Source: Candidatus Woesearchaeota archaeon
GTDB lineage: Archaea > Nanobdellota > Nanobdellia > SCGC-AAA011-G17 > JACPNG01
Assembly (NCBI GenBank): GCA_016185605.1
Contig: JACPNG010000015.1
Location: 7,103-71,102, forward strand
DNA: 64,000 nucleotides
Reading direction: 5' to 3'
The notes under the pieces are model-generated. The model saw only the letters and a program-made list of their open reading frames with translations. It was not told the DNA's origin and ran no database searches. Shown here in pieces: positions 1,997-61,300 of the stretch. The translations under genes and the position numbers were made by a program. Position 1 is the first letter of the stretch; every line of letters starts with the position of its first letter.

Positions 1997-3010
1997 TTAT
2001 GGAACTAATCTATCTCTACTATTTAAATGATTCCAGACTGTGGTTTTATTTATATTTAATTCTTTCCCTATCTTTTCATAACTTAGACCTTGATTCCTTA
2101 ATTCCATCATTTTATCCTTTAATTTTATCACTTCTCTATGCGGTTTTACCCATAACTTATAACTACTAACAATCTGTTTAAGCCTATCTTTTTTACGAAT
2201 AATTGTAAAGTTTATATATTTATCAAATAACTCAATAGATTTTCTATCTTGTACACTTAAGGTATAACTTGGCAATCTCGGTTTTTTATTCTTCTTAGAA
2301 TGTATTTTTGATTCAATACCAAAACCATTTAAGAGAGCTTTAACATCTTCTAGACCATTATTATTAATGGAAAAAGCCCTTATTCTTTTGCCCACTTCAT
2401 CTACATTGCCTTCAGAATCGAAAAAGCCTTTTATAAACTGAGATTGTATCTCTAAATCAGCTCTTTTTATTCTTTCAGGAACTCTCCACTTTTTAACTCC
2501 AAATTTGCCATAACATAACAGATTTTCACAGGCCTTTATTGAACATAATCTAGTTCTTGATTGATTATTCCAGTTACTGATTTTTGGGATATGAATTTCC
2601 TTGGTTGGATTGAGTCTATAAACTTGTGATAAACTATTTCTAAACTCATTAACAAATTCCTTATCTACAGCCGATAATCCAATCTGATATACTGATTTAT
2701 TAGAGTTATAGATTAAAAAACCATCACCACATAAAACCCCCAAGATATAAGCTTTCTCTAAACTAAGTTTCTTTGAAGAATTCGGAATTTGATTTTCAAA
2801 TATTCTAATTCTTCCACTTTGAACGCCTAACTTTGCAGCCTCTTTCCTCGAACGTCTCTTTATATTTAACTTATTAAGGTGATATATTATTATAGAATGA
2901 GATTTATTTAGTTTGCTTGCTATAGAACGAGTAGATTCTCCTTTCTGATAAAGTTGTTTAAATTGCTCTATTTCTTCTTTAGCGATTGGATGACCATTCA
3001 TTTTTTTCAA
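1997..3010 (-). CDS. free-standing LAGLIDADG homing-endonuclease-like protein with N- and C-terminal HTH domains
   Basis: 337 aa. Two LAGLIDADG-type motifs (LGVLCGDGFL and IKGFFDSEGNV). HTH-like segments at both ends (STRSIASKLNKSHSIIIYHL; LSYEKIGKELNINKTTVWNHL). Confidence 0.65.
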   Translation of the reverse strand: MKKMNGHPIAKEEIEQFKQLYQKGESTRSIASKLNKSHSIIIYHLNKLNIKRRSRKEAAKLGVQSGRIRIFENQIPNSSKKLSLEKAYILGVLCGDGFLIYNSNKSVYQIGLSAVDKEFVNEFRNSLSQVYRLNPTKEIHIPKISNWNNQSRTRLCSIKACENLLCYGKFGVKKWRVPERIKRADLEIQSQFIKGFFDSEGNVDEVGKRIRAFSINNNGLEDVKALLNGFGIESKIHSKKNKKPRLPSYTLSVQDRKSIELFDKYINFTIIRKKDRLKQIVSSYKLWVKPHREVIKLKDKMMELRNQGLSYEKIGKELNINKTTVWNHLNSRDRLVP

Positions 3011-13599: not shown

Positions 13600-14679
13600 T
13601 TAGAATTGGACTCCAGGATTCTCCTTTTGATAGAATGATTTTAACATTGGATGTGGAAAAGGCAACATTGCTATAAATGGTTGTTTTGAGGTATATGCTT
13701 CCGCTTTCAGCCATTCTGAATATAAGAATGATCCTGGAAGATGATTATATATCCCCCCTTCATTTGGGTGTTTTTGTGAGACTAATACTCTTAAATAATC
13801 CCTATAATCAATTGGATTTTTTCTCTTAGACAATAATTGTTCTCTTACTATATTATCAACTTCAGCTTCTTTTAATCTTTGATCAAGAGTAGAAAGTGTT
13901 TTCTGAAGATATTCTCCTCTCCAATTTAAAGGCACAATCTCTGTCTTTGTGTCCCAATAAACTGGACGACCACCATCAACGCCGAGTTTAAATGGGTCAA
14001 AACCAGGGGGGATTGACTTCTTATCTTTGACTTGATAAATCTGAAAATGAAGTTGCTCTGGTTGTAGTTCTGTATTAATATATCCACTATTCCCAGATAA
14101 TGCAATGACATCGCTTAAATTGATAGATAGATCTTTCTTCTTAATTATTCTTTTAGATAAATGGACATATGAACTTCTATATGTGCCATCACCATACTCA
14201 TCTTCGTGTGACAACCTTATTTTTTTTCCCCCCTGATAACTTTCATGAACACTTCTTATAAATCCTCTATTTGTTGGGACAACTGGTGTCCCTGTCGGAA
14301 CTTCATAATCCACAGCTCCAAATCCTTTATTCCATGATCCTGATGCATGCTCATTAAAATCTATGTAACGACCCCTCCAGTAAAGGAGTGAAGGTCCCCT
14401 AATTAAGTCTTGAGTCATTAAATAAGATTCCCAATGTCTATCTGCTATATAATTTAAACTATCTTTTCCCCCACATCCATTAAGCCATAAAAATGTCCAT
14501 CCCGCTAAACCAGCGGCATATTTTAGAAATCTTCTTCTTTCAGTGGAAAATATAGGAAGGTTATTTTTAAATTTACTTAGCTCCGCAATGCCTCCTTCGA
14601 CCAATCTTGAGTCTCTAACTCTATTTTCAATTTCACCAGATACCCCAACTTGTTTTTTCATCTTTCTGAGAAGTCGCAT
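13600..14679 (-). CDS. M23-family (LytM/lysostaphin-like) metallopeptidase with Tat signal and lipobox
   Basis: 359 aa. ERRRFLKYAAGLAGW twin-arginine motif followed by WLNGCGG lipobox. M23 core: GAVDYEVPTGTPVVPTNRGFI...SSYVHLS...IALSGNSGYINTELQPEQLHFQI. Confidence 0.7.
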   Translation of the reverse strand: MRLLRKMKKQVGVSGEIENRVRDSRLVEGGIAELSKFKNNLPIFSTERRRFLKYAAGLAGWTFLWLNGCGGKDSLNYIADRHWESYLMTQDLIRGPSLLYWRGRYIDFNEHASGSWNKGFGAVDYEVPTGTPVVPTNRGFIRSVHESYQGGKKIRLSHEDEYGDGTYRSSYVHLSKRIIKKKDLSINLSDVIALSGNSGYINTELQPEQLHFQIYQVKDKKSIPPGFDPFKLGVDGGRPVYWDTKTEIVPLNWRGEYLQKTLSTLDQRLKEAEVDNIVREQLLSKRKNPIDYRDYLRVLVSQKHPNEGGIYNHLPGSFLYSEWLKAEAYTSKQPFIAMLPFPHPMLKSFYQKENPGVQF

Positions 14680-16204: not shown

Positions 16205-16719
16205 GATTTAACCTTAATCTCTTTCTCAATAATGTCTATTTCTTTCTTTATTGCCCTTAAAATCCTCTCTTTATCCTCTTGTATCAATAACTCCCCGCAC
16301 TCAGGGCATCTAAAGTCATTGTCCATAGCTTCATCATATCTCATCCTTACATGCTTGTCCTTGCATAAGAAATAATTAACTTCTTTTTCCCTAGCCAATA
16401 GCTCATTTAGCTCATCTAACTTCTTCTGCTTATGGGAGATTATTAAATTCTTAGCTTCTTTGTCATTAAATGTCCAGTAATAGACATACCATCCCTTTTT
16501 CTTGTCTTTTTTTCTGGTAAATGACACCAAGCTTCTTTCTTGTAACTTATAGAACATATTTCTGACTTGGTTTATTGTTAATTTTAACTTTTCAGCTATC
16601 TTGAACTCATTTATGTTTTTCTTGCCCTTAAAGAGCTTAATTAAAGGTAATATTTCCTTCCCATAAAGCTCTTTCATCAGCTCTTCTGTCTGCCTGTCTG
16701 TCAATTTCATTATTATCAT
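16201..16719 (-). CDS. tfe: transcription factor E (TFE, TFIIE-alpha homologue)
   Basis: 172 aa. N-terminal winged helix plus C-terminal zinc ribbon (CKDKH...FRCPECGE). Confidence 0.7.
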   Translation of the reverse strand: MIIMKLTDRQTEELMKELYGKEILPLIKLFKGKKNINEFKIAEKLKLTINQVRNMFYKLQERSLVSFTRKKDKKKGWYVYYWTFNDKEAKNLIISHKQKKLDELNELLAREKEVNYFLCKDKHVRMRYDEAMDNDFRCPECGELLIQEDKERILRAIKKEIDIIEKEIKVKS

Positions 16720-18402: not shown

Positions 18403-20172
18403 ATGAAAGCTACTGAGTTAAAGCAGAAATATCTAAATTTCTTCAAATCCAAAGGCCATAGCATAGTCCCTTCTGCATCATTAATTCCAGAGAATGACCC
18501 GACAATATTGTTTACAACAGCTGGAATGCATCCATTGGTTCCATATTTATTAGGACAAAAGCATCCATTGGGAAAAAGAATAGTAAATGTCCAGAAATGC
18601 ATCAGGACAGGGGACATTGATGAAGTGGGGGACAGTTTACATCTAACATTTTTTGAGATGCTTGGAAACTGGAGTTTAGGGGATTATTTCAAGGATGAGG
18701 CTATTGAATGGAGCTTCGAATTTTTAACAGATAAAAAATATCTTAATTTGGATGCAGATAGATTGGCAATATCTGTCTTCAAGGGGGATAAAGACGCTAA
18801 AAAAGATGAATTTTCATATAAAAAATGGCTGTCTTTGGGAATTCCAAAAGAGAGAATAGCATTTCTTCCAAAAAATGACAATTGGTGGGGTCCTGCCGGA
18901 TTAACTGGACCTTGCGGTCCTGATACAGAGATGTTCTACTGGGCATCTAATGAGAAAGCCCCTAAAAAATTCAATCCAAAAGATGTTAAATGGTTTGAAA
19001 TCTGGAATGATGTTTTCATGGAGTATAATAAAACCAAAGAAGGAAAATATGAATTGCTAAAGCAAAAGAATGTTGACACTGGAATGGGTGTTGAAAGAAC
19101 TTCTGCTGTATTGCAGAATAAAAAATCAGTATATGATATAGAAATATTCTCTCCAATAATTGAAAAAATAAAAGAAATTTCGGATATAAAAAAAATAGAT
19201 GAAAATAAGCTTAAGTCAATTAGGATAATAGCTGATCATCTAAGGGCAGCCACATTTATACTGGGAGACGAAAAAAGGATAACCCCCAGCAATGTTGAGC
19301 GGGGATATGTACTAAGAAGATTGATAAGAAAATCCATAAGACATGGAAAATTAATTGGAATAGAAAATAATTTCACATTTGAGGTAGCCAAGTCAATAGT
19401 AAACATCTACAAGGATGAATATAATGAGATTGAAAAATATAAAAAATTCATCTTCGAGGAATTAGACAAGGAAGAGGAGAAATTTAGAAATACCCTGGAT
19501 AAGGGAACAAAAAGATTTAATGAGATAATAAAATCATTAAAAACAAAAACTATTCCAGGAATAGACGCATTTCACCTGTATGACACCTATGGATTTCCAA
19601 TTGAATTGACAAAGGAATTAGCCATTGAGAAAGGATTTAAAATAGATGAAAATAAGTTCAATCTTGAGTTTAAAAAACACCAGGAAAAATCCAGATTGAG
19701 TACAGAAAAGAAATTCACTTCAGGATTGGCTGACCATGGTGCAAATACTACAAGATTGCATACAGCAACTCATTTATTGCACCAAGCATTAAGAAATATT
19801 CTGGGAAATCATGTCCAGCAAAAAGGCTCTAATATAACTCATGAGCGTTTAAGATTTGACTTTTCCCATGATAATAAGATGACAGATGAGCAGATTAAGA
19901 AAGTTGAAAATATAGTAAATGAGCAGATTAAGAAATCATTGGAGGTTAAAAGAGATGAAATGTCGCCTTCTGAAGCCAAATCAAAGGGTGCTTTGGGATT
20001 TTTTGAATCTAAGTATGGAAACAAAGTAAGCGTCTATTCTGTTGGAAATTTTTCAAAGGAAATCTGCACAGGGCCCCACGTTAATAACACAAAAGATATC
20101 GGAAAATTTAAGATTACAAAAGAAGAGGCTGTTGCTGCTGGAATAAGAAGAATAAGAGCTATTGTAGAATAA
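18403..20172 (+). CDS. alaS: alanyl-tRNA synthetase, bacterial-type, compact (catalytic + tRNA-recognition + editing core; no C-Ala domain)
   Basis: 589 aa. PENDPTILFTTAGMHPLVPYL (TNAGM-like), FFEMLGNWSLGDYFK, WWGPAGLTGPCGPDTEMFY, editing-domain HTATHLLHQAL and C-terminal CTGPHV. Confidence 0.8.
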   Translation: MKATELKQKYLNFFKSKGHSIVPSASLIPENDPTILFTTAGMHPLVPYLLGQKHPLGKRIVNVQKCIRTGDIDEVGDSLHLTFFEMLGNWSLGDYFKDEAIEWSFEFLTDKKYLNLDADRLAISVFKGDKDAKKDEFSYKKWLSLGIPKERIAFLPKNDNWWGPAGLTGPCGPDTEMFYWASNEKAPKKFNPKDVKWFEIWNDVFMEYNKTKEGKYELLKQKNVDTGMGVERTSAVLQNKKSVYDIEIFSPIIEKIKEISDIKKIDENKLKSIRIIADHLRAATFILGDEKRITPSNVERGYVLRRLIRKSIRHGKLIGIENNFTFEVAKSIVNIYKDEYNEIEKYKKFIFEELDKEEEKFRNTLDKGTKRFNEIIKSLKTKTIPGIDAFHLYDTYGFPIELTKELAIEKGFKIDENKFNLEFKKHQEKSRLSTEKKFTSGLADHGANTTRLHTATHLLHQALRNILGNHVQQKGSNITHERLRFDFSHDNKMTDEQIKKVENIVNEQIKKSLEVKRDEMSPSEAKSKGALGFFESKYGNKVSVYSVGNFSKEICTGPHVNNTKDIGKFKITKEEAVAAGIRRIRAIVE

Positions 20173-20173
20173 T

Positions 20174-20458
20174 TTACTTAAATTTATCCAGGCAATTATT
20201 AAATTCTTTGTTTTCTGTCCACTGGCATTTGTTTTTGACACATCCGCAGCCTGTTAATTTATAGCATCCATACTCTTCCTTGTATTCACAAGTTGTGATT
20301 ATATTCTGGGCATTTTCTTTTTGCAAACATAACTGTCCAGAGCATCCTCCAGCAGAACAATCACTATCTATATTACATTCAATATCGTTTATAGGAACAT
20401 TATTAGCATTACTACATCCAATAAGAAATAATAAAAATAAAATAATTAATTTTTTCAT
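20174..20458 (-). CDS. Cys-rich putative lipoprotein (signal + LIGC lipobox)
   Basis: 94 aa with 10 Cys after a lipobox-like LFLIGCS. Confidence 0.4.
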   Translation of the reverse strand: MKKLIILFLLFLIGCSNANNVPINDIECNIDSDCSAGGCSGQLCLQKENAQNIITTCEYKEEYGCYKLTGCGCVKNKCQWTENKEFNNCLDKFK

Positions 20459-20880
20459 TTCAAAATTACTTTATCTCCCAAGTTAATATTATTTTCTATT
20501 GCAAAATTATTATTTACCTCCAACACATATTTGGCTTTATCTTTTGGTTTATAGCTTATACATTCATCATCGCATGGAACAGCGTGTTTTATGTCCACAA
20601 TCTTTAAATTCTTAGAGATAAAAATCATATCCAATGGAATTAATGTATTCTTCATCCAGAAACTATGATAATCCTCATCTTCAAAAACAAACAGCATCCC
20701 GGAATTTTTATCTAGGCTTTCTCTGAACATTAATCCTTGTGTTCTTTCTGAGTCAGAATCTGCAATTTCAATATTAACTTTTATCTCATTATCTTCATTA
20801 TTAATTATCAGATAATCCTTATTAGCACAACCATTCATAAGTATTAATGGAACTAAAGCTATCAATAATAACATTTTCAT
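20455..20880 (-). CDS. DUF192 (COG1430-like) secreted protein
   Basis: 141 aa. ERTQGLMFRESL...MLFVFEDE...FWMKNTLIPLDMIF matches the DUF192 pattern. Stop overlaps the leuS start region (operon). Confidence 0.55.
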   Translation of the reverse strand: MKMLLLIALVPLILMNGCANKDYLIINNEDNEIKVNIEIADSDSERTQGLMFRESLDKNSGMLFVFEDEDYHSFWMKNTLIPLDMIFISKNLKIVDIKHAVPCDDECISYKPKDKAKYVLEVNNNFAIENNINLGDKVILK

Positions 20881-23800
20881 TCTAAAAATATTGCTGGTTT
20901 TCCAGGCTTGGCTTTTTTTGATTTATTTTCTGGATCATATTTATTCTTGTCAGAAACTGAATAAACAATAACATCCTTGTTTACTTTAATGCTCAATTCT
21001 TTAGAATTATAGTTATTAACTTCATTAGGCAGTGAATAAACATAAACCTTGCTGAATTCTTTTCCTTGTTTTTCTTTCATCACATTAATTACATTTGTTA
21101 TATCTGAAACCAAATTATTAAATGATTTTTCAGCCTGTTCAAATTTTATATCTATCTTAGATTCATCATATTCTGGCCATTTTTCCAGGCTCAGGAATTT
21201 TTTATTTCCAATTTTTTCCCATAACTCTTCTGTAATATGAGGACAAAATGGATGTATTAACTTAAGGAATTTCTCCAAATCTTTCTTGCTTATTTCATTT
21301 TCCAAGGAATCAAATAAATCCCTAATCTTAATAATTGCCAAGTTATACTTGAATTCTTCTATATCTTGAGTAACATCTTTTATTGTTTTGTTTAATTTAC
21401 TTTCAACCTTTCTGGATGTTTTTCCCATCTTCACATTTGAAACATAATCTATTAGCCTTCTGACAAATCTTAGGCTTCCATCTATGCCTTTAGAACTCCA
21501 TTCCATATCTTTGTCAGGAGCAGCCCCTGATATCAAGAATAATCTTGCTGTGTCTATCCCATATTCTTTTGATACAGCTTCTGGCAAGACAACATTGCCT
21601 CTGGATTTTGACATTACAAATCCGTCTTCCCCGTGCAACATTCCTTGGTTGAATAACTTGATGAAAGGCTCATCAATATTTACATATCCCATATTCCTAA
21701 GGGCTTTAGTAAAAAATCTTGCATAAATTAAATGCATACAGGCATGCTCTGCCCCCCCAATATACTGGTCAACAGGCATCCAATAGTTTGTTTTCATAGT
21801 ATCAAATGGTTTCTTATTATTTTTATTATCGCAATATCTTAAGAAGTACCAAGAAGAATCAAAGAAAGTGTCCATTGTATCTGTTTCTCTTTTAGCATTC
21901 TTTTTGCATCTAGGGCATTTTACATTTAAAAATTTTTTATTTGTTGTTAATGGGTTTCCTTTTCCAAATTTAACCTTGTCTGGAAGTTTTACAGGAAGAT
22001 CTTTTTCTTGAACTGGAATAATTCCGCAAGAATCACAATAAATTATTGGAATCGGAGTCCCCCAATATCTTTGTCTTGAGATTAGCCAGTCCCTTAATTT
22101 GTAATTAACAGTTAACTTTCCTATTTTTTTATTTTCTAATTCTTTGGTTATCTTTATCTTGGCTTCTTCTGAATTTAGTCCATTGAACTTTTCAGAATTA
22201 GTTAGAATACCTTCATCAACATATGCCTCTTGTGTACAATTCAACATTCTCAGAGCATGTTTATGAGTAGTTGGTGTCAAAAATTTCTCAAGCTCCTTTA
22301 AGTTAAGCCATTTTATTTCATGGATCTCCTTTTCAGCTTCTGAAATATTTTTTTGCTTGCTATTTTGCAATTCAAAATAAAGAACGTGTGCATGAGCAAA
22401 TCTATTTATCTTTTTAGGCACATGATAAAATCTTCCATGCACTCTGCCAAAATCTTTAATTAATTTAGGATTTAAATATCCAGTTTCTTCTTCAATTTCT
22501 ATCTTGGCTGCTTCTTCTGGAGTTTGGTTTTTTTCTATTCCACCAGTAATGAAAGTTCCCCAAACAACTTTTTTCCATTTTAATCCTATATATTTTTCTT
22601 CAGACCAGTGTTTTACAATAGCAATAATTGCATCTCTATGATCAAATGGTAAACCATCAACAATCTTACCTGGTTCTGTATCTTGACTATAAACTGGCTC
22701 TATTACATTCACTATTTTAAGATTGTACTTCTTTGCAAACTCAAAATCTCTTTGGTCATGAGCTGGAACTGCCATTACCATCCCAGAGCCATATTCAGCA
22801 ATGACAAAATTTCCTGCATAAACTGGAATTTTTTGATTTGTTAATGGATGTAATGCATAACTCCCTGTAAACACCCCTTCTTTATCCAACTTTTCTATAT
22901 CTTCTTTTTTTGTTGATTTTATTTTTCTTAAGAAATTATCAACCTCTTTCTTCTGTTCTTTTGTTACAATCTCATGAAGCCTTGGATGCTGGGCGGAAAT
23001 AACCATAAAAGTTACCCCAAATAAAGTATCTGGACGAGTAGTAAATATTTTCCATTTTCTAAATAATAAATTTAAGACTTCCTCTTCCTTTTCTCCATTA
23101 TAATGTGTCTTATTTCCCATTGCAGTGATAATTTGTGCTTCTAATTTATTAGCTATTTCCATGGGTTGATTAATAGGAACAATATGATCATTTTTATCTA
23201 CAAGAATAAATATTTGTCTAACATTCTCCTTAATTTTATTAAAATCAAACTTCCAATCACAATAATTTGATAGGGCAGGTCTAGGTTTGTTATCAATGAA
23301 AGCTTTGCCGGAGATAATTCTTTCTTTTGTTGGAAGTGGAGGAGCAACCATTATTAATTTGCCTATCTTTATTCTCCCAGATGAGAGTAATTTCATCATC
23401 AAAATATTTCCAAGAGAATGTCCTATTACTATGCTGTTCTCATTAAAATTATAATTATTTAAAACAAACTCTGATTGTTCTTTATACTGCGGATTATTTG
23501 TATTTGGCAAATCAGGAGAAAATGATACTCTTCCACCCTTATTTTCAATTTCTTTTCTTAACCACAACCAAAAAGCATCTTTAGAACTATCTCCATATGC
23601 ATGAAGAAAAACAAACTCTTTATCTTTTACATCTTCAAATATTTCAAATTCAATCTCAGTTCCATAGCTTTTTCCAATCCAGTTCTCCTGCATTATTTTT
23701 ATTCTTTCAGACCATTGTAATTTTTCTATATCTTTCAAAAGCTCATCTGCATATTTTGTTGTCTTGATGAACCATTGTTCTAATTGTTTTGTCTCAACAT

Positions 23801-24347
23801 CTGTATCTTTATGACGCCAGCATTTTCCGTTATGGACTTGCTCATTTGCCAATACAGTATCGCATTTAGAGCACCAGTTAACACTTGCTTTTGATTTATA
23901 CACTAATCCATTCTCCAAGAATTTCAAAAAGAAATACTGGTTCCATTTATAGTATTCTGGAGTATGAGTCATTAATAACCTATCCCAGTCATAACTTAAT
24001 CCAAGCTCTTTTTGCTGCCTTATAAAATTTTTAATGGAATTCTCTGTGAATTTCTTTGGATGCTCTTTGGCTAGAATAGCTGCATTCTCTGCTGGAAGTC
24101 CAAATGAATCATATCCCATTGGATATAATACATTAAATCCCATCATCCTTTTAAATCTTGAATAAATATCTCCAATAGTATAGTTAAATGCATGACCCAT
24201 ATGCAGTCCAGAGCCAGAAGGATATGGAAACATCTCAAGAACATAGAATTTTTTCTTATTATTCTCTTTAACTTTGAATACTTTTTTCTGTTCCCATCTC
24301 TTCTGCCATTTCTTTTCTATTTTGCTGAAATCAACCATTATATTCAT
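20877..24347 (-). CDS. leuS: leucyl-tRNA synthetase (archaeal type) with two extra hydrolase-like domains inserted around the CP1 editing domain
   Basis: 1156 aa. HMGH (HIGH) and VMSKS (KMSKS) motifs, NWIGKSYG, TTRPDT and AVPAHDQRDFEFA editing motifs. About 195 extra aa with a GHSLG nucleophile elbow between WIGKS and TTRPDT (approx. nt 23058..23642). About 145 extra aa with a Nudix-box-like GGIEKNQTPEEAAKIEIEEETG after the editing core (approx. nt 22233..22670). Confidence 0.85.
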   Translation of the reverse strand: MNIMVDFSKIEKKWQKRWEQKKVFKVKENNKKKFYVLEMFPYPSGSGLHMGHAFNYTIGDIYSRFKRMMGFNVLYPMGYDSFGLPAENAAILAKEHPKKFTENSIKNFIRQQKELGLSYDWDRLLMTHTPEYYKWNQYFFLKFLENGLVYKSKASVNWCSKCDTVLANEQVHNGKCWRHKDTDVETKQLEQWFIKTTKYADELLKDIEKLQWSERIKIMQENWIGKSYGTEIEFEIFEDVKDKEFVFLHAYGDSSKDAFWLWLRKEIENKGGRVSFSPDLPNTNNPQYKEQSEFVLNNYNFNENSIVIGHSLGNILMMKLLSSGRIKIGKLIMVAPPLPTKERIISGKAFIDNKPRPALSNYCDWKFDFNKIKENVRQIFILVDKNDHIVPINQPMEIANKLEAQIITAMGNKTHYNGEKEEEVLNLLFRKWKIFTTRPDTLFGVTFMVISAQHPRLHEIVTKEQKKEVDNFLRKIKSTKKEDIEKLDKEGVFTGSYALHPLTNQKIPVYAGNFVIAEYGSGMVMAVPAHDQRDFEFAKKYNLKIVNVIEPVYSQDTEPGKIVDGLPFDHRDAIIAIVKHWSEEKYIGLKWKKVVWGTFITGGIEKNQTPEEAAKIEIEEETGYLNPKLIKDFGRVHGRFYHVPKKINRFAHAHVLYFELQNSKQKNISEAEKEIHEIKWLNLKELEKFLTPTTHKHALRMLNCTQEAYVDEGILTNSEKFNGLNSEEAKIKITKELENKKIGKLTVNYKLRDWLISRQRYWGTPIPIIYCDSCGIIPVQEKDLPVKLPDKVKFGKGNPLTTNKKFLNVKCPRCKKNAKRETDTMDTFFDSSWYFLRYCDNKNNKKPFDTMKTNYWMPVDQYIGGAEHACMHLIYARFFTKALRNMGYVNIDEPFIKLFNQGMLHGEDGFVMSKSRGNVVLPEAVSKEYGIDTARLFLISGAAPDKDMEWSSKGIDGSLRFVRRLIDYVSNVKMGKTSRKVESKLNKTIKDVTQDIEEFKYNLAIIKIRDLFDSLENEISKKDLEKFLKLIHPFCPHITEELWEKIGNKKFLSLEKWPEYDESKIDIKFEQAEKSFNNLVSDITNVINVMKEKQGKEFSKVYVYSLPNEVNNYNSKELSIKVNKDVIVYSVSDKNKYDPENKSKKAKPGKPAIFLE

Positions 24348-24414: not shown

Positions 24415-24501
24415 GGGCCTGTAACTCAGTTTGGATAGAGTGTCAGCCTTCTAAACAATGAAGTGAGCTGAAAGTCCGGGGTTCAAATCCTCGCAGGCCC
24501 G
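24415..24501 (+). tRNA. tRNA-Arg (anticodon UCU) with a short (about 12-nt) intron adjacent to the anticodon loop
   Basis: Acceptor GGGCCTG/CAGGCCC. D-arm ACTC-AGTTTGGATA-GAGT. Anticodon stem TCAGC/GCTGA with loop CTTCTAA plus inserted acaatgaagtga (CTTC/GAAG pairing suggests a relaxed BHB). T-arm CGGGG-TTCAAAT-CCTCG. No encoded CCA. Confidence 0.75.
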
Positions 24502-34594: not shown

Positions 34595-35539
34595 GGCTCT
34601 GGTGCAATCCCAATATTTAAGTAGTATAGAGGCATTAGCCCCCTTAATTTTATAAGGTTATTAACAAAAAGGAAGGTGATGCCCCTATGGCTAATGAAGA
34701 GTATGAAGACTACTTAAAGTTTATTGATTGTGCATTGGAGATTTCTAATAATATTCCCAGATACTTTTCCAAGTATTCCAATAAGATTTATTGCAATCAT
34801 CAGAAACTAGCAATATATATACTGATGCAGAAGATGAGAAGGACCTACAGGGGGATTATATCATGGTTAAAATCCAATAATGATGCATGCCTATATCTGG
34901 GAATATGCAAAATTCCAGTACATACAACCATAGTAAGGTTTGCCAAGAGAATCAGCAAATATCTTCATTTAATATTAGACATAAGAAAAGCGGATAGTGT
35001 TGCTGTTGATTCCACTGGATTTGAATTAGAATCAAAAAGCTATTACTACAGAAAAATGCAGTATTCTAAGGATAAACAGAGAGCAAAGAGGTTTATGAAG
35101 CTGAGTATAGTTGCTGATATAGATAAACAGCTTATACTTGATTATAGGATTAGAAGGGATTACAAGAGATGCAACACAGAGTTTAGAAGCATGATTAAGG
35201 ATATGGACATTAATTATGTCATAGCTGACAAGGGATATGACTCTTATGACAACAGGAATTTTGTGATAAGGAAGCTAAAAGCAATTCCTATTATCCCAGT
35301 AAGAAATTATACAAATTACTATGGCTATCTAAAGGGCAGAAGGATTAAAGGGGATAAATATCATCAGAGAAGCAAAATAGAAAGCATATTCTCCTCTATT
35401 AAGAGAAAATACGGCTCTGTAATTAGATCAAGAAGTTTTATATCACAAAAGACAGAGCTTATAGCTAAGCTCATAGCATACAATATAGACAGGAAGATTA
35501 GCTATTTACTATTTATTATCAGAGGGTTGCACCAGAACC
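34595..35539 (+). mobile_element. insertion sequence (IS4/IS5-type DDE transposase) with imperfect 16-17-bp terminal inverted repeats and 8-bp target-site duplication
   Basis: IRL GGCTCTGGTGCAATCCC (34595..34611). IRR GGGTTGCACCAGAACC (35524..35539), 15/17 identical with one indel. Flanking direct repeat TTGTTTGG at 34587..34594 and 35540..35547. Confidence 0.7.
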
Positions 35540-35559
35540 TTGTTTGGATATTTTCGTAA
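34687..35559 (+). CDS. DDE transposase (IS4/IS5 family)
   Basis: 290 aa. AVDSTGFE...VIADKGYDS...KIESIF DDE triad pattern. The ORF reads 20 nt past the IS right end. Confidence 0.75.
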   Translation: MANEEYEDYLKFIDCALEISNNIPRYFSKYSNKIYCNHQKLAIYILMQKMRRTYRGIISWLKSNNDACLYLGICKIPVHTTIVRFAKRISKYLHLILDIRKADSVAVDSTGFELESKSYYYRKMQYSKDKQRAKRFMKLSIVADIDKQLILDYRIRRDYKRCNTEFRSMIKDMDINYVIADKGYDSYDNRNFVIRKLKAIPIIPVRNYTNYYGYLKGRRIKGDKYHQRSKIESIFSSIKRKYGSVIRSRSFISQKTELIAKLIAYNIDRKISYLLFIIRGLHQNLVWIFS

Positions 35560-43393: not shown

Positions 43394-43465
43394 GGGCCGG
43401 TAGATTAACGGCAAATCGCGCCCTTGGCTAGGGTGAAATTCCGGGTTCAAATCCCGGTCGGTCCA
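43394..43465 (+). tRNA. tRNA-Ala (anticodon GGC)
   Basis: Acceptor GGGCCGG/TCGGTCC including the G3:U70 Ala identity pair. D-arm GATT-AACGGCA-AATC. Anticodon arm CGCCC-TTGGCTA-GGGTG. T-arm CCGGG-TTCAAAT-CCCGG. Confidence 0.85.
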
Positions 43466-46763: not shown

Positions 46764-47861
46764 ATGAAATCGTGGCATATCTGGGATTTTCCGGATAATA
46801 TTTATATCTCTCTAAAAAGACAGGCTCATAAAGAATTTTTCAGAGAAATGTTTATAGAGTATGGGGGAAAAAGAGCGTATGCTAGATTCTTAGGTTTATC
46901 ACAAACCGCTGTAAAACAGCATTGGAGAGGTTACAGCAAAAAAGGCGGAAGATTATACACACAGTGTATACCTCTCTGGGTTCTAAAAAAATCTTGTAAA
47001 ACAAATAGACTTAAAAGAAAAATCGAGAATAATATAAATCTAATAAAAGGGTCAAATAAATCAAATCCAATAACAAACCCAAAATTGCCAATAGAAGAGA
47101 ATCCAGAATTGTATAGAATAACTGCACATATGATAGCAGATGGTAGTGCGCCTAGAAATAAGGTTCCTTATTATTCAAATACTTCAAAAGTTTTAAGGGA
47201 ACAATTTAAGAAGGATTTAAAGATATTTGGAAAGATGAGAGTTTATGACTCTAAATTAACAATTCCTATTGTTTACTTTCCAAAAATATTAACTGATATA
47301 TTGTCCCATATACTTAATGTGAGATTTTCTTTCCCAAATAGACTACCAAGTGAAACTTTCAAAGCTACAGAAGAATGTAAAAGAGCATTTTTACAGGCTT
47401 TATTTGATGACGAAGGTTATATATCAACCGGTCTATGCATAAGTATGTCTAATTTAAAGGTAATAAAACAGATAAAAAAATTATTAAAAGCTATAGAAGT
47501 AGAAACCAATAAAATAGGGATAAAAAGGCAAAAATATAGGAAGAATAATTTTATCATAAATGTGAAAAAAAAGCACTATAAAAGATTTGATGAAAAAGTT
47601 GGATTTTCCCATCCAGAGAAATCTAGAAATTTAAAATTTGCATTAAAGACTCTTAATAGAAAAATAAGAACAAGAGACCCATATATAATTAAAGAAGAAA
47701 TTTTAAAATATTTAAGAAGAAAACCTATGAAAACTTTAGAATTAGCTAATAACATACAACTTAGTTTAGGACATTGTTTAAGACACTTAAAAAGCATTGA
47801 AAAGATGGGTGATATAGAAAGAACTGGATTTAAAAATAAGATAATTTGGTATCTTCCCTAA
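46764..47861 (+). CDS. free-standing LAGLIDADG homing-endonuclease-like protein with flanking HTH domains (second copy of this architecture)
   Basis: 365 aa. LAGLIDADG-type motifs ITAHMIADGSA and LQALFDDEGYIS. C-terminal wHTH-like region. Confidence 0.65.
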   Translation: MKSWHIWDFPDNIYISLKRQAHKEFFREMFIEYGGKRAYARFLGLSQTAVKQHWRGYSKKGGRLYTQCIPLWVLKKSCKTNRLKRKIENNINLIKGSNKSNPITNPKLPIEENPELYRITAHMIADGSAPRNKVPYYSNTSKVLREQFKKDLKIFGKMRVYDSKLTIPIVYFPKILTDILSHILNVRFSFPNRLPSETFKATEECKRAFLQALFDDEGYISTGLCISMSNLKVIKQIKKLLKAIEVETNKIGIKRQKYRKNNFIINVKKKHYKRFDEKVGFSHPEKSRNLKFALKTLNRKIRTRDPYIIKEEILKYLRRKPMKTLELANNIQLSLGHCLRHLKSIEKMGDIERTGFKNKIIWYLP

Positions 47862-48421
47862 GGTCTTACCCATTCCACATTGTAATAAGTAACATCATTC
47901 TCATCATCAACAATGCCTATTAATAATCTCTTTCTTGTGCTATGAGCAACTCTATTCTTAGCTGAGAATTCATACCAAGTGGACACACTAGCTTCATGGA
48001 CAGGATATAAAATCCATTTCGCATGATCATCTCCAGGCTTGACTCCCCTGTCATAAACCCTGAAATCAGCCCCAAATTTTAGAGCAGTTTTTACTATATA
48101 GCCCCTATTTCTCATATCCCTAAATACAACATACCTTATCCAGAAATTTGGCTCTACTTCTCGAGCCTTTTTAATAAAATCATCGGCATTAATCTTCTTA
48201 TTTTTATTATCTAGAATATCCATTCTCTTTTTTTCTAATAAATATAAGGCTTCTACCAAAGAATAATAGAATTTTCCCTCCTGCAATTCGCCAAACTTGC
48301 TTTGGTTATGGAGTTCCCTAGATTCATTATTCTCTTCGGCCACAACTTTTTCATTAGAGAATATAGCGCTTATTTTATTTGTTATTTCCTTGGGTTTTTC
48401 CTTTTTCTCTGCCATAGCCAA
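47858..48421 (-). CDS. endA: tRNA-splicing endonuclease (EndA)
   Basis: 187 aa. GYIVKTALKFGADFRVY...HAKWILYP...VAHSTRKRLLIG catalytic-domain motifs. Confidence 0.75.
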   Translation of the reverse strand: MAMAEKKEKPKEITNKISAIFSNEKVVAEENNESRELHNQSKFGELQEGKFYYSLVEALYLLEKKRMDILDNKNKKINADDFIKKAREVEPNFWIRYVVFRDMRNRGYIVKTALKFGADFRVYDRGVKPGDDHAKWILYPVHEASVSTWYEFSAKNRVAHSTRKRLLIGIVDDENDVTYYNVEWVRP

Positions 48422-55323: not shown

Positions 55324-58300
55324 TTAAGTAATTTTTATCTCTAATTTTTCATTTATTTTATCTACATATTTATTTGATACTGGAATATTTTTACTTCTTA
55401 AATCATCTAATGCTGTAGGACCCATATTATAAGCTATCAAAGCTAATCTTAAATCATTCCTATATCTATTTTTAAGATAATATAGATAACATGTGCCTGC
55501 ATTTATATTCTGTTGAGGATCTTTGTATACATCATTAAATTCTAGATCCCCACAATGTTTAGAACTAGCTTTAGTTTTCATATCAGTTATTGTGATTGGT
55601 CTCAGTTGCATTAACCCACAATCCTCTCCATTACAAACCTCTGGTTTCCAACTAGATTCTTCAGTTATTATTGCTATTATTAAACTCTTATCAATTCCAT
55701 ATGTATTACTAGCTTGTTCAATTATTGGAAGATATTTTTCAATCTTCGAACGATAAGATACAAGTACTGATTCTTTTACCCCCTCTATTGTTGTTAATTT
55801 TTCATCTGGCTTTTCTGAAGATATTAGATTAGATGTTTGACTAAGTTTTATTATATCTCCCCTACTTAAAGATAGACAAGAATTAGGAATTGAGACTGGA
55901 TTGGTTGGAATATAACATTTTTTATCTTCATTATAATTATAAACCCCTTCATTAATTGTTTGTAAAGGTACATCCAAAGCAACATATGCCTTAGTTCTAG
56001 CTATTATTGGTTGTTTTTTATAAAAGATGGGTAACCATTTATTCTCTAAGTCTCTTAAATAATTATTTCCAATATCAATTATGGTTGTTATTTCTATCTC
56101 TTTAGTTTCTATATTACATCTAGCATATCCAAGATTACATATGGGTATAAGTTTTATTAATTCCTTTAACTCCATGCCTTCAAAGTCTTTAGTAAAACAT
56201 CTTTTTCTTACATCATCCCAATCACATCTATTAAAACCACATCTATCTAATGGTTCTAATAAATCTAATTGTCTTTCTTCATAATCACCAAGACAAGCTA
56301 ATTTTCTATTTTCATCACCTTGAACCTTATTATAATCTTCACACGATTTTATATCATCACACGAATTACATAAATTACTAATTAAACCACCAAATCCATA
56401 ATAATAACATTTTTGATTATTACCATCTATCTTCTTACATTCATTATAATTACAATATTTAAAATCGTAATATGTACCACCACATTGATTACATTGTAAT
56501 TGAGTTTGTTGTAGTGTAGTAGTTTCAGATGATGATTTTGTAGATGTTACATCTTTCCGTTTTTCTTGTTGTATATCATCTACATAATTTGGAGGTCTAT
56601 AATCTTCAACAGTAGAAGTTTCATCTATTTTTGTCGGTTCTTTCAATATTTTAGAAAATTCATCTTGTTTTATTTCTATCCATTCTCCCTGGCTGTATTT
56701 ATAATATCTTAATTCATCATATTCAGTAGTAAGTATAGAAGTTGCAATTATATTTTCTGTATTAATGGAGTTCTGTAAAATTTTTATATTTTCATTTAAT
56801 CCTGTTACATCTGTAGTTAAAGTTTCTCCTTCTTTACCACATATCTCGCCTTTAGAAACATCTTTATAAGTCAATCCACAAAAACAAGATTTTTCACAAG
56901 TTTCCGGGCATTTAACTTGATTAGTATCATAAACTCCTTCCCCATAATCATAAGCAAATAATCCAGGACAACTTTCTGTACTAGTTTTTGTTTGGCCTCC
57001 AGTCTGTGTTACTAATCCAGATTTCCTCCTAAACTTACCCCATTCTTCATATGTTTCTCCTAATCTAAAAGTGGCCTTGGCTGCTATATTTGGAATTAGA
57101 GTATTGCTTGCTTTTTTGTACATCTCAACAAGGCTTCTAAATCCCTCTTCAGTTGGATTATTTAGCACATCATCCAATAAATAGCCAGCATCAGTCAATA
57201 TTCCATCAGCCTCCTGCTGCGATAATATATTAAGATTTATTATTCCTTCTTCAGCTAATTTAGTCTGTAGATTCTTTAATTCTACTTGAGTTGTATTTCT
57301 AAGCTCTACATCCTTTATCAGCTTGCTTAGGGCTGGCCTGTATAGCCAGCAGGTTCCTAAATCTCTTCCCTTATCATCTATTCCGCAGCTTCCTACTTCT
57401 ACCCATGTCTGTGTATTTACCCCGATTCCAGGATTAAATCCAGAGCATCTCCTTATTATTCCAGTTTCCACTAATCCAGTTGAGAAGCTTCCTACACCAG
57501 CTACCAGAGGATTAATACTCCCTCCAAATTTTCCGCCACCAGTATAATCTAATGTAGATAATCTTCCTGTCTGTGGAACACATTCCTCAGCTGATTTAAT
57601 CTGTTTTTTCGCTTCGCTGGCTGTATAAATATCGCTTAATTTATTCAATCCAAAATCAGTTGTTACTTTGCCAAATCCGCATTCATTTATTCTAGTTGTT
57701 TTTCCTTTTATCTCAACACATACCTCATTATAGCCAGCTAACTGGACAAAATCATCATTCTGCTGGTTAAATCTTCCAGCATCCAATCTTTTATTCCTTA
57801 TAATAAAGAAGAACGGCAAGTAGCTTTGTCCTAGTTCATTAACTCCCTTTAGATAAACACTATAAGTTACTGGCTCATTAGCCCCTGCATAAATATGATG
57901 AAATACACTATATTGGTTTTCTTTGGCCCTTCCTACCTCTGAATAAGGCAATGTATCAAAAAATGCTATAAACTGAGGAGGGCTTACTGGCCTTGTTATC
58001 TGGTCAAAGAATCCCTCTCCAGGCAGTTTTCCTCCAATAAAAGACTTGCAAATTTCCGTTCCAATCTCATCTAAACTCCCTCCAGAATAAGCTGCAAACA
58101 CATTCTTTGCATAATCCTGGGTAAAGAATTTTAATGAATTTATCGAAGTGTCTATTGAATTTTTAAAGTTTGCATATTCTCCCCCGCCTTTCCCAGTATC
58201 AAATACTTTCTCGCTTAAAAAGTCAAATATTCCTCCTTTAATATTAAATATTGCTACCCCCTCTCTCCATAAAATATCACAAACATAAAGGTTTCTTACT

Positions 58301-61300
58301 CTATCACATATCCCAACAGATTCTCCCTTGACTTTTTGGACATTCAGACATTCACTATATCCCTGCAGCATTGATTTTATATTTTGAAGTCCAGCTAATA
58401 ATCCTGTAATGCATACTGGCACAGCAACTTCTCCTCCAGCTAGAACAGAATTTGGAGCGCATAATGCTAGACTTCCTATAATTCCAGTCTGGGCAACATT
58501 AGCAACCTGCCATTTTCCATTTAAATTGCATCTTGAGCTTGGACACATTACTGGATCACAAGCATTAAACAATAATCTACAGTCTTCTGGAGACATAAAA
58601 TCAACGCAGCTTTTTCCTATTTCTGTTACTTGAACATTTTCCTTAGAATAACCGCACTTTAGACGAGCTCCTGTCTCAAGATTACTTCTGCTTAATTCTT
58701 TGTTGCAGGTGTTAACTTTTCCCATCAAATTACCCAGTTCTTTGCAATCTTGTTCACTAACAACATCCTGTCTTTTGAATACATCCCCTCTATAATTACA
58801 GATTTGTCTGACAGAATTTAAATCCCCCATGCTTACTCCAGTTCCTAAAGGTCCATTTGGTAATGTTCTCTTAAATATAGTTACATCTTTAGCAGCTCCT
58901 GAGGCTGTATATTCTAATTGCGCATATAACAAAGAGCTAATAGTAATAGAATCAACTTTTCCCTTGTTTCTTCCCTCATTTAATATTGATAATTTATTAA
59001 TGGGCTTGACTTGCTGTGTTCTTTGATCTCCAAATACAACCGGGTCACAGCCTGTTGGTCTTTTAACAAAATATTTTGCTGTTTTTGATTTATCATCGAT
59101 ATTTATATCTGTATTAAGTCTTTGGTTGTCATCGTTACAACTACTATCTTTATATAATATATATGAATTATATCCATCTTGAAGTTTACGTATATCTGTA
59201 GTTGGATCTTTTACAACTGAATATTTACTTAAGATAGTTGGACCAAATCCAATAGACTTAACAAATTGTGTATTCCTAATATAATCAAAAGCATTATCTA
59301 TACATTTCTTAACTTGATTGCATTTCCGCCCTATTTCATTTCTTAATCCTTCATTTATAGTTATATCTCCAGAGAATTCTCTATTTTTGTCTCCATAGAA
59401 ATATTCGGCCAGTTGTTGTCCTTTTAATCTATTATTATATGTAGATAAGATTTGGGCTTGATTTGCCGAATATTCTGTTTCATCTTTAACTATAATTCCT
59501 ACTTTATTTAAATCATCCCTAATTTCGCTGAACTTTTTTTTAGAGATATCTCTTGTTTTATCATCTATATAAGCTAATCTTATGTTTTTTTCAGAATCTA
59601 GATATTTATCATAATACCTATTTGGATCATAGCCATACATTCCTTTAGTAAAGCAGTAATCCTTAATAGTATCCTTACTCTTGTCAGATGTAAATTGAAT
59701 ATTTATTGGTAGATCACACGTGGCTCCACCTTGTATAGAATCAACTATATTTTGTGCAGCCTCTATATCATTGCCATACCTGTCAGAATTTTTAATTACA
59801 AAATTATCGAATGTCCCTACATTTTCTCCTCTCGCCTTTGCCTCTCTATATTCATCTACCCATTTATCCCTTATTTTTTCTCTGGCTATTCCCTCATTGC
59901 TGAACACTCCTTGTATTAAATTCTTTGACCATAATGCTCCAAAAGTAACATAGCAGAAATTAATCCAGAATTTGTGGATTTTTTCCATATTTTTTATTAA
60001 TGAATCAACTTTGTCTATTAATTTCTTTGTTTTGTTTATTTCATCATCTAGATTGCTGCTGAATATAGATGGCCTTATTGCCCTTTTTTCAATGTCTATA
60101 TGCAGATTAAAATTAGATTCGCTGAATGCATTTTCTGAGTCAGGAATTATAGATATATAGACTTCTTTTTTTGCTTCTACGCTTTTGACTCTAACTTTAA
60201 TGAACTTATCCTTGTCTTTTCCAGTTGAAACTGATCTCAAATTATTTGTTAATGTTATTCTTTCAAACGTTGTTGCTCTTTGCTGGGAAGTTGATAAAGG
60301 ATTTTCATAATCTCTTCTGATAACAACAGAATTTCTGCTTATTGATTCTACCCTCCATAAATATCCTGGATCATAAATATCATAAAGTGCTTCTCCTGTT
60401 GTTAGCCTTTTATCTATCCCGTTTATTTCTAATACTGCTTTTGGCTTGTCTTGATCAGAAGCTTTGTTAATCTCCAATAGTTGAACTCTTATTATCTCTC
60501 CATTATCCTCTAAATCCTGGGCTTTAGACTTAAAGTTTAATGATGATCTTATATTATTGATTCTATTTTCTATGTCTTGTTTTTCTTTGGAAGAAAATCT
60601 AGGATCATTCAGCAACTCCTCATAACTTCTTAGTGCATTTTCATCATTCCCCAAAAAATAATTAATTAATGCTATTCTTTCCTTGGCTTTGACAGCAAAA
60701 ACTTGGTTATCATCATCCCTCTCATCTGGATAATTCCTTATCAATTCAGTATAAGTCTGTGTTGCTAAATTGAATAAATCAGCATAACCTTGCGGTTCTG
60801 TTTTAGATTCTTTTGTTGAATATCTTGCTGCAGAATCAGTATTAATAAAATCAACAATCTCTGTCATTACAGCATTAATCTCCCTGCTTTTTTCAGGATT
60901 TGAATATGATTGTTCTCTACTTAATCTTTCTAAATCGGAAAATATTCTTTTCTGTAAAAAGTTAGTTGCTTCTTGTTTAGTAGACTCTCCTACATTACTT
61001 TGTATAATTAATCCTTTTAATTGTGCAACCATATCTTTTATAGATTCCAGATATAATGCGGTTTCTGGACTATTTTTGTCTAATCCTTCATATTTCAATT
61101 TTATTGCTTCAAAATTTATTTCTTCAGGTCTTGATGGAATGCAGCATATTTGATTATTCAATTCTAATTCAGTAGCTCCTTCAAATGTGCTACATCCAAC
61201 ACTTTCTCCTTCACCAATTTCCTTCTTACCAGAAGGGCATATTAGTGAGTCTTCACAAGTTCCACCAGCATTTTTACAAGCATCTTGTCCTGTTAAAATC

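What the first reader, a model, noticed from the sequence alone, without database searches (positions are those of the whole stretch)
18403..20172. Compact bacterial-type alanyl-tRNA synthetase without C-Ala domain in an archaeal genome
The N-terminal catalytic motifs (FTTAGMHP = TNAGM-like, FFEMLGNWSLGDYFK, WGPAGLTGPCGPDTEMFY) are those of bacterial or eukaryal AlaRS. They do not match the distinct archaeal AlaRS N-terminus. The protein stops at 589 aa right after the editing-domain CTGPHV motif, so the C-terminal oligomerisation and tRNA-binding domain is absent. This is either a horizontally acquired replacement or a minimalist AlaRS. It is relevant to how reduced genomes retain Ala/Ser/Gly discrimination.
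Basis: partly seen in the sequence, partly recalled or inferred. Interest (0 to 1): 0.6.

Follow-up and report, generated by a model that had tools for sequence, protein, structure and literature searches.

The report
Known short bacterial-type AlaRS in archaeon
This is an intact, selected gene for a short alanyl-tRNA synthetase of bacterial type in a small-genome (DPANN-like) archaeon; it belongs to a large family that is already curated and described ("small-AlaRS"), so it is real but ordinary.

Summary
The ORF at 18403..20172 (+), 589 aa, is real and the quoted motifs are present. The surrounding genes are archaeal: TFIIB, TFIIE, P0, L1, Dph2, Nre and EndA. The protein matches NCBIfam NF002436 (alanine--tRNA ligase, a 595-position equivalog) end to end at 893 bits. 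It passes the bacterial alaS model and fails the archaeal one.

Compared with canonical bacterial AlaRS it lacks two pieces. The editing core is AlaX-S-like, and its HxxxH and CxxxH zinc ligands are intact.

It is not a pseudogene. All 80 retrieved relatives end within 16 residues of the same point, dN/dS is 0.06-0.09, and gene order is conserved.

At least 599 GTDB species genomes encode relatives. They include Borreliella, Treponema, Clostridia, Lentisphaeria, Chloroflexi, CPR, DPANN, Asgard and Thermoplasmatota. A 2023 preprint already names this group "small-AlaRS" and infers transfer from bacteria to archaea.

The short form separates from the canonical form at 95% bootstrap. Archaeal members are never monophyletic. 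The window protein sits in a DPANN (Nanoarchaeota-type) subcluster.

Verdict: observation confirmed, interpretation essentially right, already known. Whether the genome also holds a second alaS or an AlaX could not be tested.

The parts
18403..20172 (+). alaS gene for a 589-aa short ('small') alanyl-tRNA synthetase, including the stop codon
   Evidence: ORF. Matches NF002436 at 1-589 against 1-593/595, 893 bits, cutoff 529. dN/dS 0.06-0.09 against syntenic orthologues.
18403..19698 (+). Aminoacylation domain plus helical tRNA-recognition (ATL) domain, aa 1-432
   Evidence: Pfam tRNA-synt_2c covers 5-441. phmmer match to Aquifex 1riq over 2-432, 332 bits. Foldseek TM 0.81-0.88 to E. coli, Aquifex and human catalytic fragments. 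Invariant R68 and D225-T226-G227.
19291..19293 (+). Asn297, equivalent to E. coli N303 (contacts U70 of the G3:U70 pair)
   Evidence: Aligned to PSN in Aquifex and canonical AlaRS. Role taken from PMC10036535.
19582..19584 (+). Asp394, equivalent to E. coli D400 (contacts the 2-amino group of G3)
   Evidence: YDTYGFP motif. Role taken from PMC10036535. Most other DPANN/CPR members have Q, S, E or T at this position.
19699..19740 (+). Short flexible linker (aa 433-446) standing where canonical AlaRS has the roughly 100-aa beta-barrel with the FYAESGGQ motif
   Evidence: Alignment to six canonical AlaRS. pLDDT below 50 for aa 433-444. The AlaX-M model matches only from position 94 onward.
19741..20169 (+). 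Editing core, AlaX-S-like (aa 447-589), ending the protein
   Evidence: tRNA_SAD covers 542-584. Foldseek to AlaX-S 1v7o/1wnu gives TMt 0.83, against 0.53 for AlaX-M. All 80 relatives end 0-16 aa after this point.
19759..19773 (+). HxxxH zinc-binding motif (HTATH, aa 453-457)
   Evidence: Both His are present in 81 of 81 aligned sequences.
20065..20079 (+). CxxxH zinc-binding motif (CTGPH, aa 555-559). CxGPH is a signature of the short family; canonical AlaRS has CGGTH.
43394..43465 (+). tRNA-Ala(GGC), the presumed substrate, with G3:U70 and A73
   Evidence: ARAGORN and Rfam. Acceptor stem GGGCCGG/TCGGTCC read from the sequence.

Best explanation
The gene encodes the working alanyl-tRNA synthetase of a DPANN-type (Woese/Pace/Nanoarchaeota-like) archaeon. 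It belongs to the 'small-AlaRS' family (NCBIfam NF002436/PRK01584).

Shown:
- The architecture is a bacterial-type aminoacylation domain, a helical tRNA-recognition domain, a linker of about 14 residues, and a minimal AlaX-S-like editing core.
- The beta-barrel and the coiled coil plus C-Ala are both absent.
- Active-site residues, the G3:U70-reading Asn/Asp pair and the zinc ligands are intact.
- The gene is under strong purifying selection.
- Its lineage is bacterial-type and is shared with CPR and other bacteria.

Inferred:
- It charges tRNA-Ala through the acceptor stem alone (G3:U70 read by N297 and D394), without the elbow contact that C-Ala provides.
- It probably acts as a monomer, because the dimerising coiled coil is gone.
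- It hydrolyses Ser-tRNA-Ala at the zinc site.
- Because the Gly-rich beta-barrel is missing, as in AlaX-S, Gly-tRNA-Ala may be edited poorly and left to other factors.
- The gene entered a DPANN ancestor from bacteria long ago and has since been inherited vertically.
For: - Family fit: full-length equivalog match above cutoff. More than 8000 close homologues, nearly all 579-605 aa. At least 599 GTDB species genomes have relatives, including a complete Borreliella chromosome with a 594-aa orthologue.
- Two clean deletions relative to canonical forms.
- AF2 model with pLDDT 85.6. The catalytic part superposes on bacterial and human AlaRS, and the editing part on AlaX-S.
- Catalytic, tRNA-reading and zinc residues are conserved.
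- A tRNA-Ala with G3:U70 lies in the window.
- dN/dS is 0.06-0.09, and the gene order TFIIE - two small genes - alaS - Cys-rich gene - DUF192 - leuS is conserved in independent assemblies.
- Short clade 95/100. Window+P0001+P0004 100/100, then a Nanoarchaeota sequence at 75/100. Archaeal monophyly 0/100.
- Literature: the preprint describes the same group and the same transfer. AlaX-S edits Ser- but not Gly-tRNA-Ala (PMC11260482). Natural AlaRS without C-Ala can still charge tRNA through the acceptor stem (PMC10036535).
Against: - No biochemical study of any small-AlaRS turned up in the literature searches. Monomer state, acceptor-stem-only binding and Ser-only editing are inferences by analogy.
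- Only 64 kb of the genome is visible, so 'sole AlaRS' is not shown.
- The trees are neighbour-joining, and deep nodes are weak (47% for the DPANN cluster). A catalytic-domain-only tree placed the window next to a CPR sequence.
- No archaeal-type outgroup was included, so the direction of transfer rests on HMM scores and taxon distribution rather than a rooted tree.
Confidence: 0.85

Rival explanations
1. Truncated pseudogene or assembly artefact of a full-length alaS.
For: It is about 290 aa shorter than canonical AlaRS.
Against: - End-to-end match to a 595-position curated model.
- 80 of 80 relatives from bacteria and archaea stop within 0-16 aa of the same point.
- The next gene is convergent and starts 2 nt after the stop, so there is no room for a C-Ala remnant.
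- dN/dS is 0.06-0.09.
- The internal barrel deletion is in frame and shared by the whole family.
Confidence: 0.01
2. Bacterial contamination or a chimeric contig: the gene is not really in an archaeal genome.
For: The protein is bacterial-type and 56-64% identical to CPR, Firmicutes and spirochaete proteins.
Against: - Archaeal markers lie on both sides within the same contig: TFIIE at 16201-16719, and P0/L1, TFIIB and EndA further along.
- The same neighbourhood, with TFIIE, Nre and translin, recurs in four independent assemblies.
- GC of the gene region is 32.5%, within the window's range of 27.5-36%.
Confidence: 0.01
3. An accessory AlaRS paralogue next to a canonical archaeal AlaRS encoded elsewhere, for example a backup, resistance or specialised copy, rather than the housekeeping enzyme.
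For: The rest of the genome is not visible, and aaRS duplicates acquired by HGT are known (PMC5388404).
Against: - Strong purifying selection and intact catalytic, tRNA-reading and editing residues.
- The family is curated as an equivalog of alanine--tRNA ligase.
- From my own knowledge, not tested here: in Borrelia burgdorferi the 594-aa form is the only annotated AlaRS.
- No AlaX, barrel or C-Ala fragment in the 64 kb.
Confidence: 0.08
4. An ancestral archaeal (or pre-LUCA) minimal form inherited vertically, with bacteria as the recipients.
For: The window protein sits in a cluster made only of archaeal sequences (23 taxa, 47% bootstrap). Many DPANN lineages carry the gene.
Against: - Sequence and fold are much closer to bacterial and eukaryal AlaRS than to archaeal AlaRS.
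- The short clade includes coherent spirochaete, Firmicutes, Lentisphaeria and Chloroflexi groups. Asgard and Methanomethylophilaceae members sit apart from DPANN, and archaeal monophyly is 0/100.
- The preprint reports bacteria-specific insertions.
Confidence: 0.05

Closest known systems
small-AlaRS (Valencia-Sanchez et al., bioRxiv 10.1101/2023.05.29.542759) = NCBIfam NF002436 / PRK01584 short alanine--tRNA ligase
   Same: Same three-domain architecture: catalytic, ATL and editing domains, with no cradle-loop barrel and no C-Ala. Same taxa (DPANN, CPR, Asgard, Thermoplasmatota). Bacterial-type sequence. Full-length HMM match.
   Different: Nothing essential. This lineage keeps Asp at the G3-reading position, where most DPANN and CPR members have Q, S, E or T.
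Spirochaete AlaRS (Borreliella 594 aa, Treponema, Sphaerochaeta)
   Same: 57% identity over the full length, with the same end point and the same two deletions.
   Different: Different host domain. The spirochaete proteins form their own subclade.
Canonical bacterial AlaRS (E. coli, Aquifex; about 875 aa)
   Same: Aminoacylation and tRNA-recognition domains are 38-42% identical, with TM 0.81-0.84. The N303/D400 equivalents and the HxxxH/CxxxH motifs are shared.
   Different: The window protein lacks the beta-barrel (FYAESGGQ motif) and the coiled coil plus C-Ala. It has CxGPH where the canonical form has CGGTH.
AlaX-S (P. horikoshii PH0574; 1v7o, 1wnu)
   Same: The editing core has the same minimal fold without the N-terminal barrel, TMt 0.83.
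   Different: AlaX-S is free-standing and acts in trans. Here the core is fused in cis to the synthetase.
Tupanvirus mini-AlaRS and C. elegans mitochondrial AlaRS (PMC10036535, PMC8887476)
   Same: Natural AlaRS without a functional C-Ala that still charge tRNA-Ala.
   Different: The Tupanvirus enzyme also lacks the editing domain and the N and D readers, and is of eukaryotic origin. The window protein keeps both.
Canonical archaeal AlaRS (A. fulgidus, P. horikoshii) and the split N. equitans AlaRS
   Same: Same overall enzyme family and the same editing motifs.
   Different: Only 20-23% identity. Fails TIGR03683 (262 bits against 745). Not split.

Membership tests
NCBIfam NF002436 (PRK01584) short alanine--tRNA ligase / 'small-AlaRS' | Whole-protein HMM score above the curated cutoff, with end-to-end coverage | tested here: met
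   893.3 bits against a cutoff of 529; aa 1-589 against model positions 1-593/595.
NCBIfam NF002436 (PRK01584) short alanine--tRNA ligase / 'small-AlaRS' | Catalytic, ATL and editing domains only; no cradle-loop barrel and no C-Ala | tested here: met
   Pfam domains. AlaX-M model matched only at 94-231. Alignment to canonical forms shows both deletions. Fold matches.
NCBIfam NF002436 (PRK01584) short alanine--tRNA ligase / 'small-AlaRS' | Groups phylogenetically with the other short forms, apart from canonical AlaRS | tested here: met
   Short versus canonical bipartition at 95/100 NJ bootstrap.
NCBIfam NF002436 (PRK01584) short alanine--tRNA ligase / 'small-AlaRS' | Alanylation of tRNA-Ala and editing of Ser-tRNA-Ala | not testable with these tools
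   Only residue conservation and a G3:U70 tRNA-Ala in the window.
Bacterial/eukaryal-type AlaRS (TIGR00344) | HMM score above cutoff | tested here: met
   653.3 bits against 457.05. The match covers model positions 1-432 of 847 plus the editing stretch.
Archaeal AlaRS (TIGR03683) | HMM score above cutoff | tested here: not met
   262.3 bits against 744.7.
Editing-competent AlaRS/AlaX superfamily | HxxxH and CxxxH zinc ligands | tested here: met
   HTATH at 453-457 and CTGPH at 555-559, invariant across 81 sequences.
Canonical AlaRS prototype (four-module) | C-Ala (DHHA1-like) domain with a Gly-rich motif and a preceding coiled coil | tested here: not met
   No DHHA1 hit, whereas canonical P0142 has one. 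No C-Ala or barrel ORF anywhere in the window.
Viral mini-AlaRS (Tupanvirus type) | Lacks the editing domain | tested here: not met
   The editing core is present.

The most novel reading that the evidence does not exclude
Small-AlaRS may be a mechanistically distinct AlaRS. It has lost both the C-Ala elbow clamp and the Gly-rich beta-barrel. On that basis it would be a monomer that reads only the acceptor stem, and its cis-editing site would behave like AlaX-S: it would clear Ser-tRNA-Ala but not Gly-tRNA-Ala. Glycine mischarging in DPANN, CPR and spirochaetes would then be tolerated or handled by another factor. In most DPANN and CPR members, though not in this one, the Asp that reads G3 has also been replaced, which hints at an altered G3:U70 readout. 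No biochemistry on this family turned up in the searched literature.
Probability: 0.3. Interest if true: 0.45.

Novelty: already known. Interest (0 to 1): 0.15.

Why it matters
The gene is one more example of bacterial-type translation genes in DPANN archaea; the neighbouring LeuRS is bacterial-type as well. It also shows that AlaRS is not as architecturally invariant as is usually stated. The family is already in curated databases and in a preprint, so this instance adds little. The open question is biochemical: how a natural AlaRS without the barrel and without C-Ala binds tRNA and edits Ser and Gly.

Tried and rejected
- Second alaS, AlaX, barrel or C-Ala fragment in the window. tblastn with the protein and HMMs built from 74 canonical AlaRS for the barrel and C-terminal regions, run against all six-frame ORFs, gave nothing better than E 0.01 and 11 bits. 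Pfam and NCBIfam scans of about 50 window ORFs found no AlaX, DHHA1 or DTD.
- Finding the rest of the source genome. The exact protein is on record only on a 2.5-kb Logan contig, so a genome-wide search for a second copy was not possible.
- Catalytic-domain NJ tree rooted on Aquifex. It put the window next to a CPR sequence. This was not robust, and it changed once close relatives and the full length were used.
- Literature on Borrelia's short AlaRS or on any small-AlaRS biochemistry. Nothing relevant was found.
- Intermediate-length homologues as evolutionary intermediates. Forms with no barrel but with C-Ala (P0194, P0210, P0255), and one with the barrel but no C-Ala (P0167), exist. They branch among canonical AlaRS, not with the short clade (0/100), so they are independent losses.
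- No archaeal-type AlaRS outgroup was fetched. HMM and fold scores were judged sufficient, so the expensive search was not spent.

Full report
**Observation.** The window has an ATG-initiated ORF at 18403..20172 on the + strand, encoding 589 aa. All the quoted motifs are present: FTTAGM (aa 37-42), FFEMLGNWSLGDYFK (83-97), WGPAGLTGPCGPDTEMFY (162-179), HTATH (453-457) and CTGPH (555-559). Pfam finds tRNA-synt_2c over aa 5-441 (E 1e-142) and tRNA_SAD over 542-584, and no DHHA1/C-Ala domain.

**Host.** The contig is archaeal. It carries TFIIB, Dph2, Nre, ribosomal P0 and L1, TFIIE-alpha, the tRNA-splicing endonuclease EndA, ZPR1, a non-discriminating archaeal-type AspRS and a dimeric GlyRS. GC content is about 30% throughout, and the gene region is unremarkable at 32.5%. 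The observation and the "archaeal genome" premise are therefore confirmed.

**What it is.** The protein matches the NCBIfam equivalog NF002436 (PRK01584, alanine--tRNA ligase, 595 positions) from end to end. The score is 893 bits against a cutoff of 529.
- It passes the bacterial/eukaryal alaS model TIGR00344 (653 bits against 457).
- It fails the archaeal model TIGR03683 (262 bits against 745).
- It matches the AlaX-M model only from position 94 onward, that is, without the N-terminal barrel.
- Against PDB sequences, the best matches are the catalytic fragments of Aquifex (332 bits), E. coli (322) and human (284) AlaRS. Archaeal AlaRS score about 165.

**Two deletions.** An alignment with six canonical 850-885-aa AlaRS shows two clean deletions.
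- The roughly 100-aa beta-barrel that carries the FYAESGGQxxDxG motif is replaced by a short linker, ...STEKKFTSGLADHGANTT...
- Everything after the editing domain is gone: the coiled coil plus the globular C-Ala with its GGGGG motif, about 290 aa.
- The protein ends at ...AAGIRRIRAIVE, exactly at the canonical end of the editing domain.

**Structure.** An AlphaFold2 model built on 54 homologues has mean pLDDT 85.6, with the linker (aa 433-444) disordered. Foldseek superposes the N-terminal 430 residues on E. coli, Aquifex and human AlaRS (TM 0.81-0.88, 36-42% identity). It superposes the C-terminal 145 residues on the minimal trans-editing protein AlaX-S (1v7o/1wnu, TM 0.83). AlaX-M is covered only in part (TM 0.53).

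**Intactness.**
- Residues equivalent to E. coli R69 and D235/G237 are invariant.
- The G3:U70 readers N303 and D400, whose roles are given in PMC10036535, are present as N297 and D394.
- Both zinc motifs are conserved in every aligned sequence.
- A tRNA-Ala(GGC) gene at 43394-43465 has G3:U70 and A73.
- Against syntenic orthologues from other assemblies (83% and 79% aa identity), dN/dS is 0.06-0.09.
- The gene order TFIIE - two small ORFs - alaS - small Cys-rich gene (convergent) - DUF192 - leuS is conserved.
- The downstream gene is convergent and begins 2 nt after the stop, so there is no remnant of a lost C-terminus.
- All 80 retrieved relatives end 0-16 residues after the same point.

Together these rule out a pseudogene, a truncation or a chimera.

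**Distribution and history.**
- More than 8000 close homologues were scored. The top 120 are almost all 579-605 aa. The named ones come from Woesearchaeota, Nanoarchaeota, Aenigmatarchaeota and Micrarchaeia, and also from Patescibacteria.
- In GTDB species representatives, at least 599 genomes encode relatives. The best 80 include DPANN lineages, a Promethearchaeota (Asgard), a Bathyarchaeota and a Methanomethylophilaceae. They also include many bacteria: Borreliella (complete chromosome, 594 aa, 57% identity), Treponema, Sphaerochaeta, Lentisphaeria/Victivallis, Clostridia, Chloroflexi, Kiritimatiellae and many CPR groups.
- Among 50%-identity representatives, lengths are bimodal, at 550-650 and 850-950 aa.
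- An NJ tree on 568 columns with 100 bootstraps gives these supports:

| Grouping | Bootstrap |
|---|---|
| Short forms separated from canonical and intermediate forms | 95% |
| Window protein + P0001 + P0004 | 100% |
| The above + a Nanoarchaeota sequence | 75% |
| 23-taxon cluster of DPANN plus one Bathyarchaeota sequence | 47% |
| All archaeal members monophyletic | 0% |

- That cluster is embedded among CPR lineages. The Asgard member groups with Chloroflexi and the Methanomethylophilaceae member with Firmicutes.
- The simplest reading is several transfers from bacteria to archaea. One of them was old, into a DPANN ancestor, and was followed by vertical descent to this organism.
- An earlier catalytic-domain-only tree was poorly resolved.

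**Prior knowledge.** A 2023 preprint (bioRxiv 10.1101/2023.05.29.542759) defines exactly this subgroup as "small-AlaRS". It describes catalytic, ATL and editing domains, with no cradle-loop barrel and no C-Ala. It reports the group in CPR, Thermoplasmatota, DPANN and Asgard, and infers horizontal transfer from bacteria to archaea from bacteria-specific insertions and an ML tree. With the curated NCBIfam model and the spirochaete orthologues, this makes the finding already known. I found no biochemical work on the family.

**Mechanism (inferred).** tRNA-Ala would be recognised through the acceptor stem by N297 and D394, without the elbow contact of C-Ala. This is comparable to natural or engineered C-Ala-less AlaRS that still charge tRNA or minihelices (PMC10036535; PMC8887476). 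Loss of the coiled coil predicts a monomer. The cis-editing core has the AlaX-S architecture. P. horikoshii AlaX-S clears Ser-tRNA-Ala but not Gly-tRNA-Ala, while the barrel-containing AlaX-M clears Gly-tRNA-Ala (PMC11260482). Weak Gly editing is therefore a reasonable but untested prediction.

**Limits.** Only 64 kb is visible. No second alaS, AlaX, barrel or C-Ala fragment occurs in it, but the rest of the genome could not be searched. The exact protein is otherwise on record only on a 2.5-kb contig. The trees are distance-based and lack an archaeal-type outgroup.

**Verdict.** The feature is an ordinary member of a known, curated and widespread family, so interest is low.

Noticed in passing
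window 20877..24347 (-): The neighbouring LeuRS is bacterial-type (TIGR00396, 893 bits) and unusually long at 1156 aa. Two enzyme domains are inserted in it: a Ser_hydrolase (PF06821, aa 248-418) before the CP1 editing domain and a NUDIX domain (PF00293, aa 578-696) after it. The syntenic LeuRS of close relatives is 816 aa (L084, neither insert) and 943 aa (L082, partial first insert, no NUDIX), so the insertions are recent and lineage-specific.
   Followed up: partly
homologues P0123, P0129, P0010, P0043: Some small-AlaRS homologues carry hydrolase domains inserted inside the synthetase: His_Phos_1 (P0123), Ham1/ITPase (P0129) and HAD-like (P0010, P0043). Taken with the LeuRS above, this may point to a recurring habit of inserting small hydrolases into aaRS genes in these small-genome lineages.
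   Followed up: no
window 19582..19584 (D394) and alignment of relatives: The Asp that reads the 2-amino group of G3 (E. coli D400) is replaced by Q, S, E, T or A in most DPANN and many CPR or Lentisphaeria small-AlaRS (motif FQSYGFP). It is nearly invariant in canonical AlaRS. The window protein and its two closest relatives keep D.
   Followed up: partly
homologues P0194, P0210, P0255, P0167: Other domain combinations exist. Some AlaRS lack the barrel but keep C-Ala (773-814 aa), and one has the barrel but lacks C-Ala (692 aa). They branch among canonical AlaRS, so the two modules have been lost independently more than once.
   Followed up: partly
window 24415..24501 (+): An 87-nt tRNA is detected by Rfam (55.6 bits) but missed by ARAGORN. 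By eye the sequence looks like a tRNA-Arg(UCU) with a short intron after position 37. A tRNA-splicing endonuclease (EndA) gene lies at 47858..48421.
   Followed up: no
window 55324..62556 (-): A 2410-aa ORF whose only Pfam hit is a C-terminal SLT lytic transglycosylase domain (aa 2279-2385). A giant murein-cleaving protein in an archaeon is consistent with an episymbiotic or predatory lifestyle on bacteria. A Peptidase_M23 protein lies at 13600..14679.
   Followed up: no
window 1997..3010 (-) and 46764..47861 (+): Two ORFs have weak matches to the intein/homing-endonuclease parts of intein-containing proteins, probably free-standing LAGLIDADG-type endonucleases. An IS5-family transposase lies at 34687..35559.
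   Followed up: no
window 20174..20458 (-): A small Cys-rich lipoprotein-like ORF (94 aa) is convergent with alaS and starts 2 nt after its stop. It is annotated on related contigs as PF27854 Heavy_Cys_CGP and is conserved in synteny together with DUF192.
   Followed up: no
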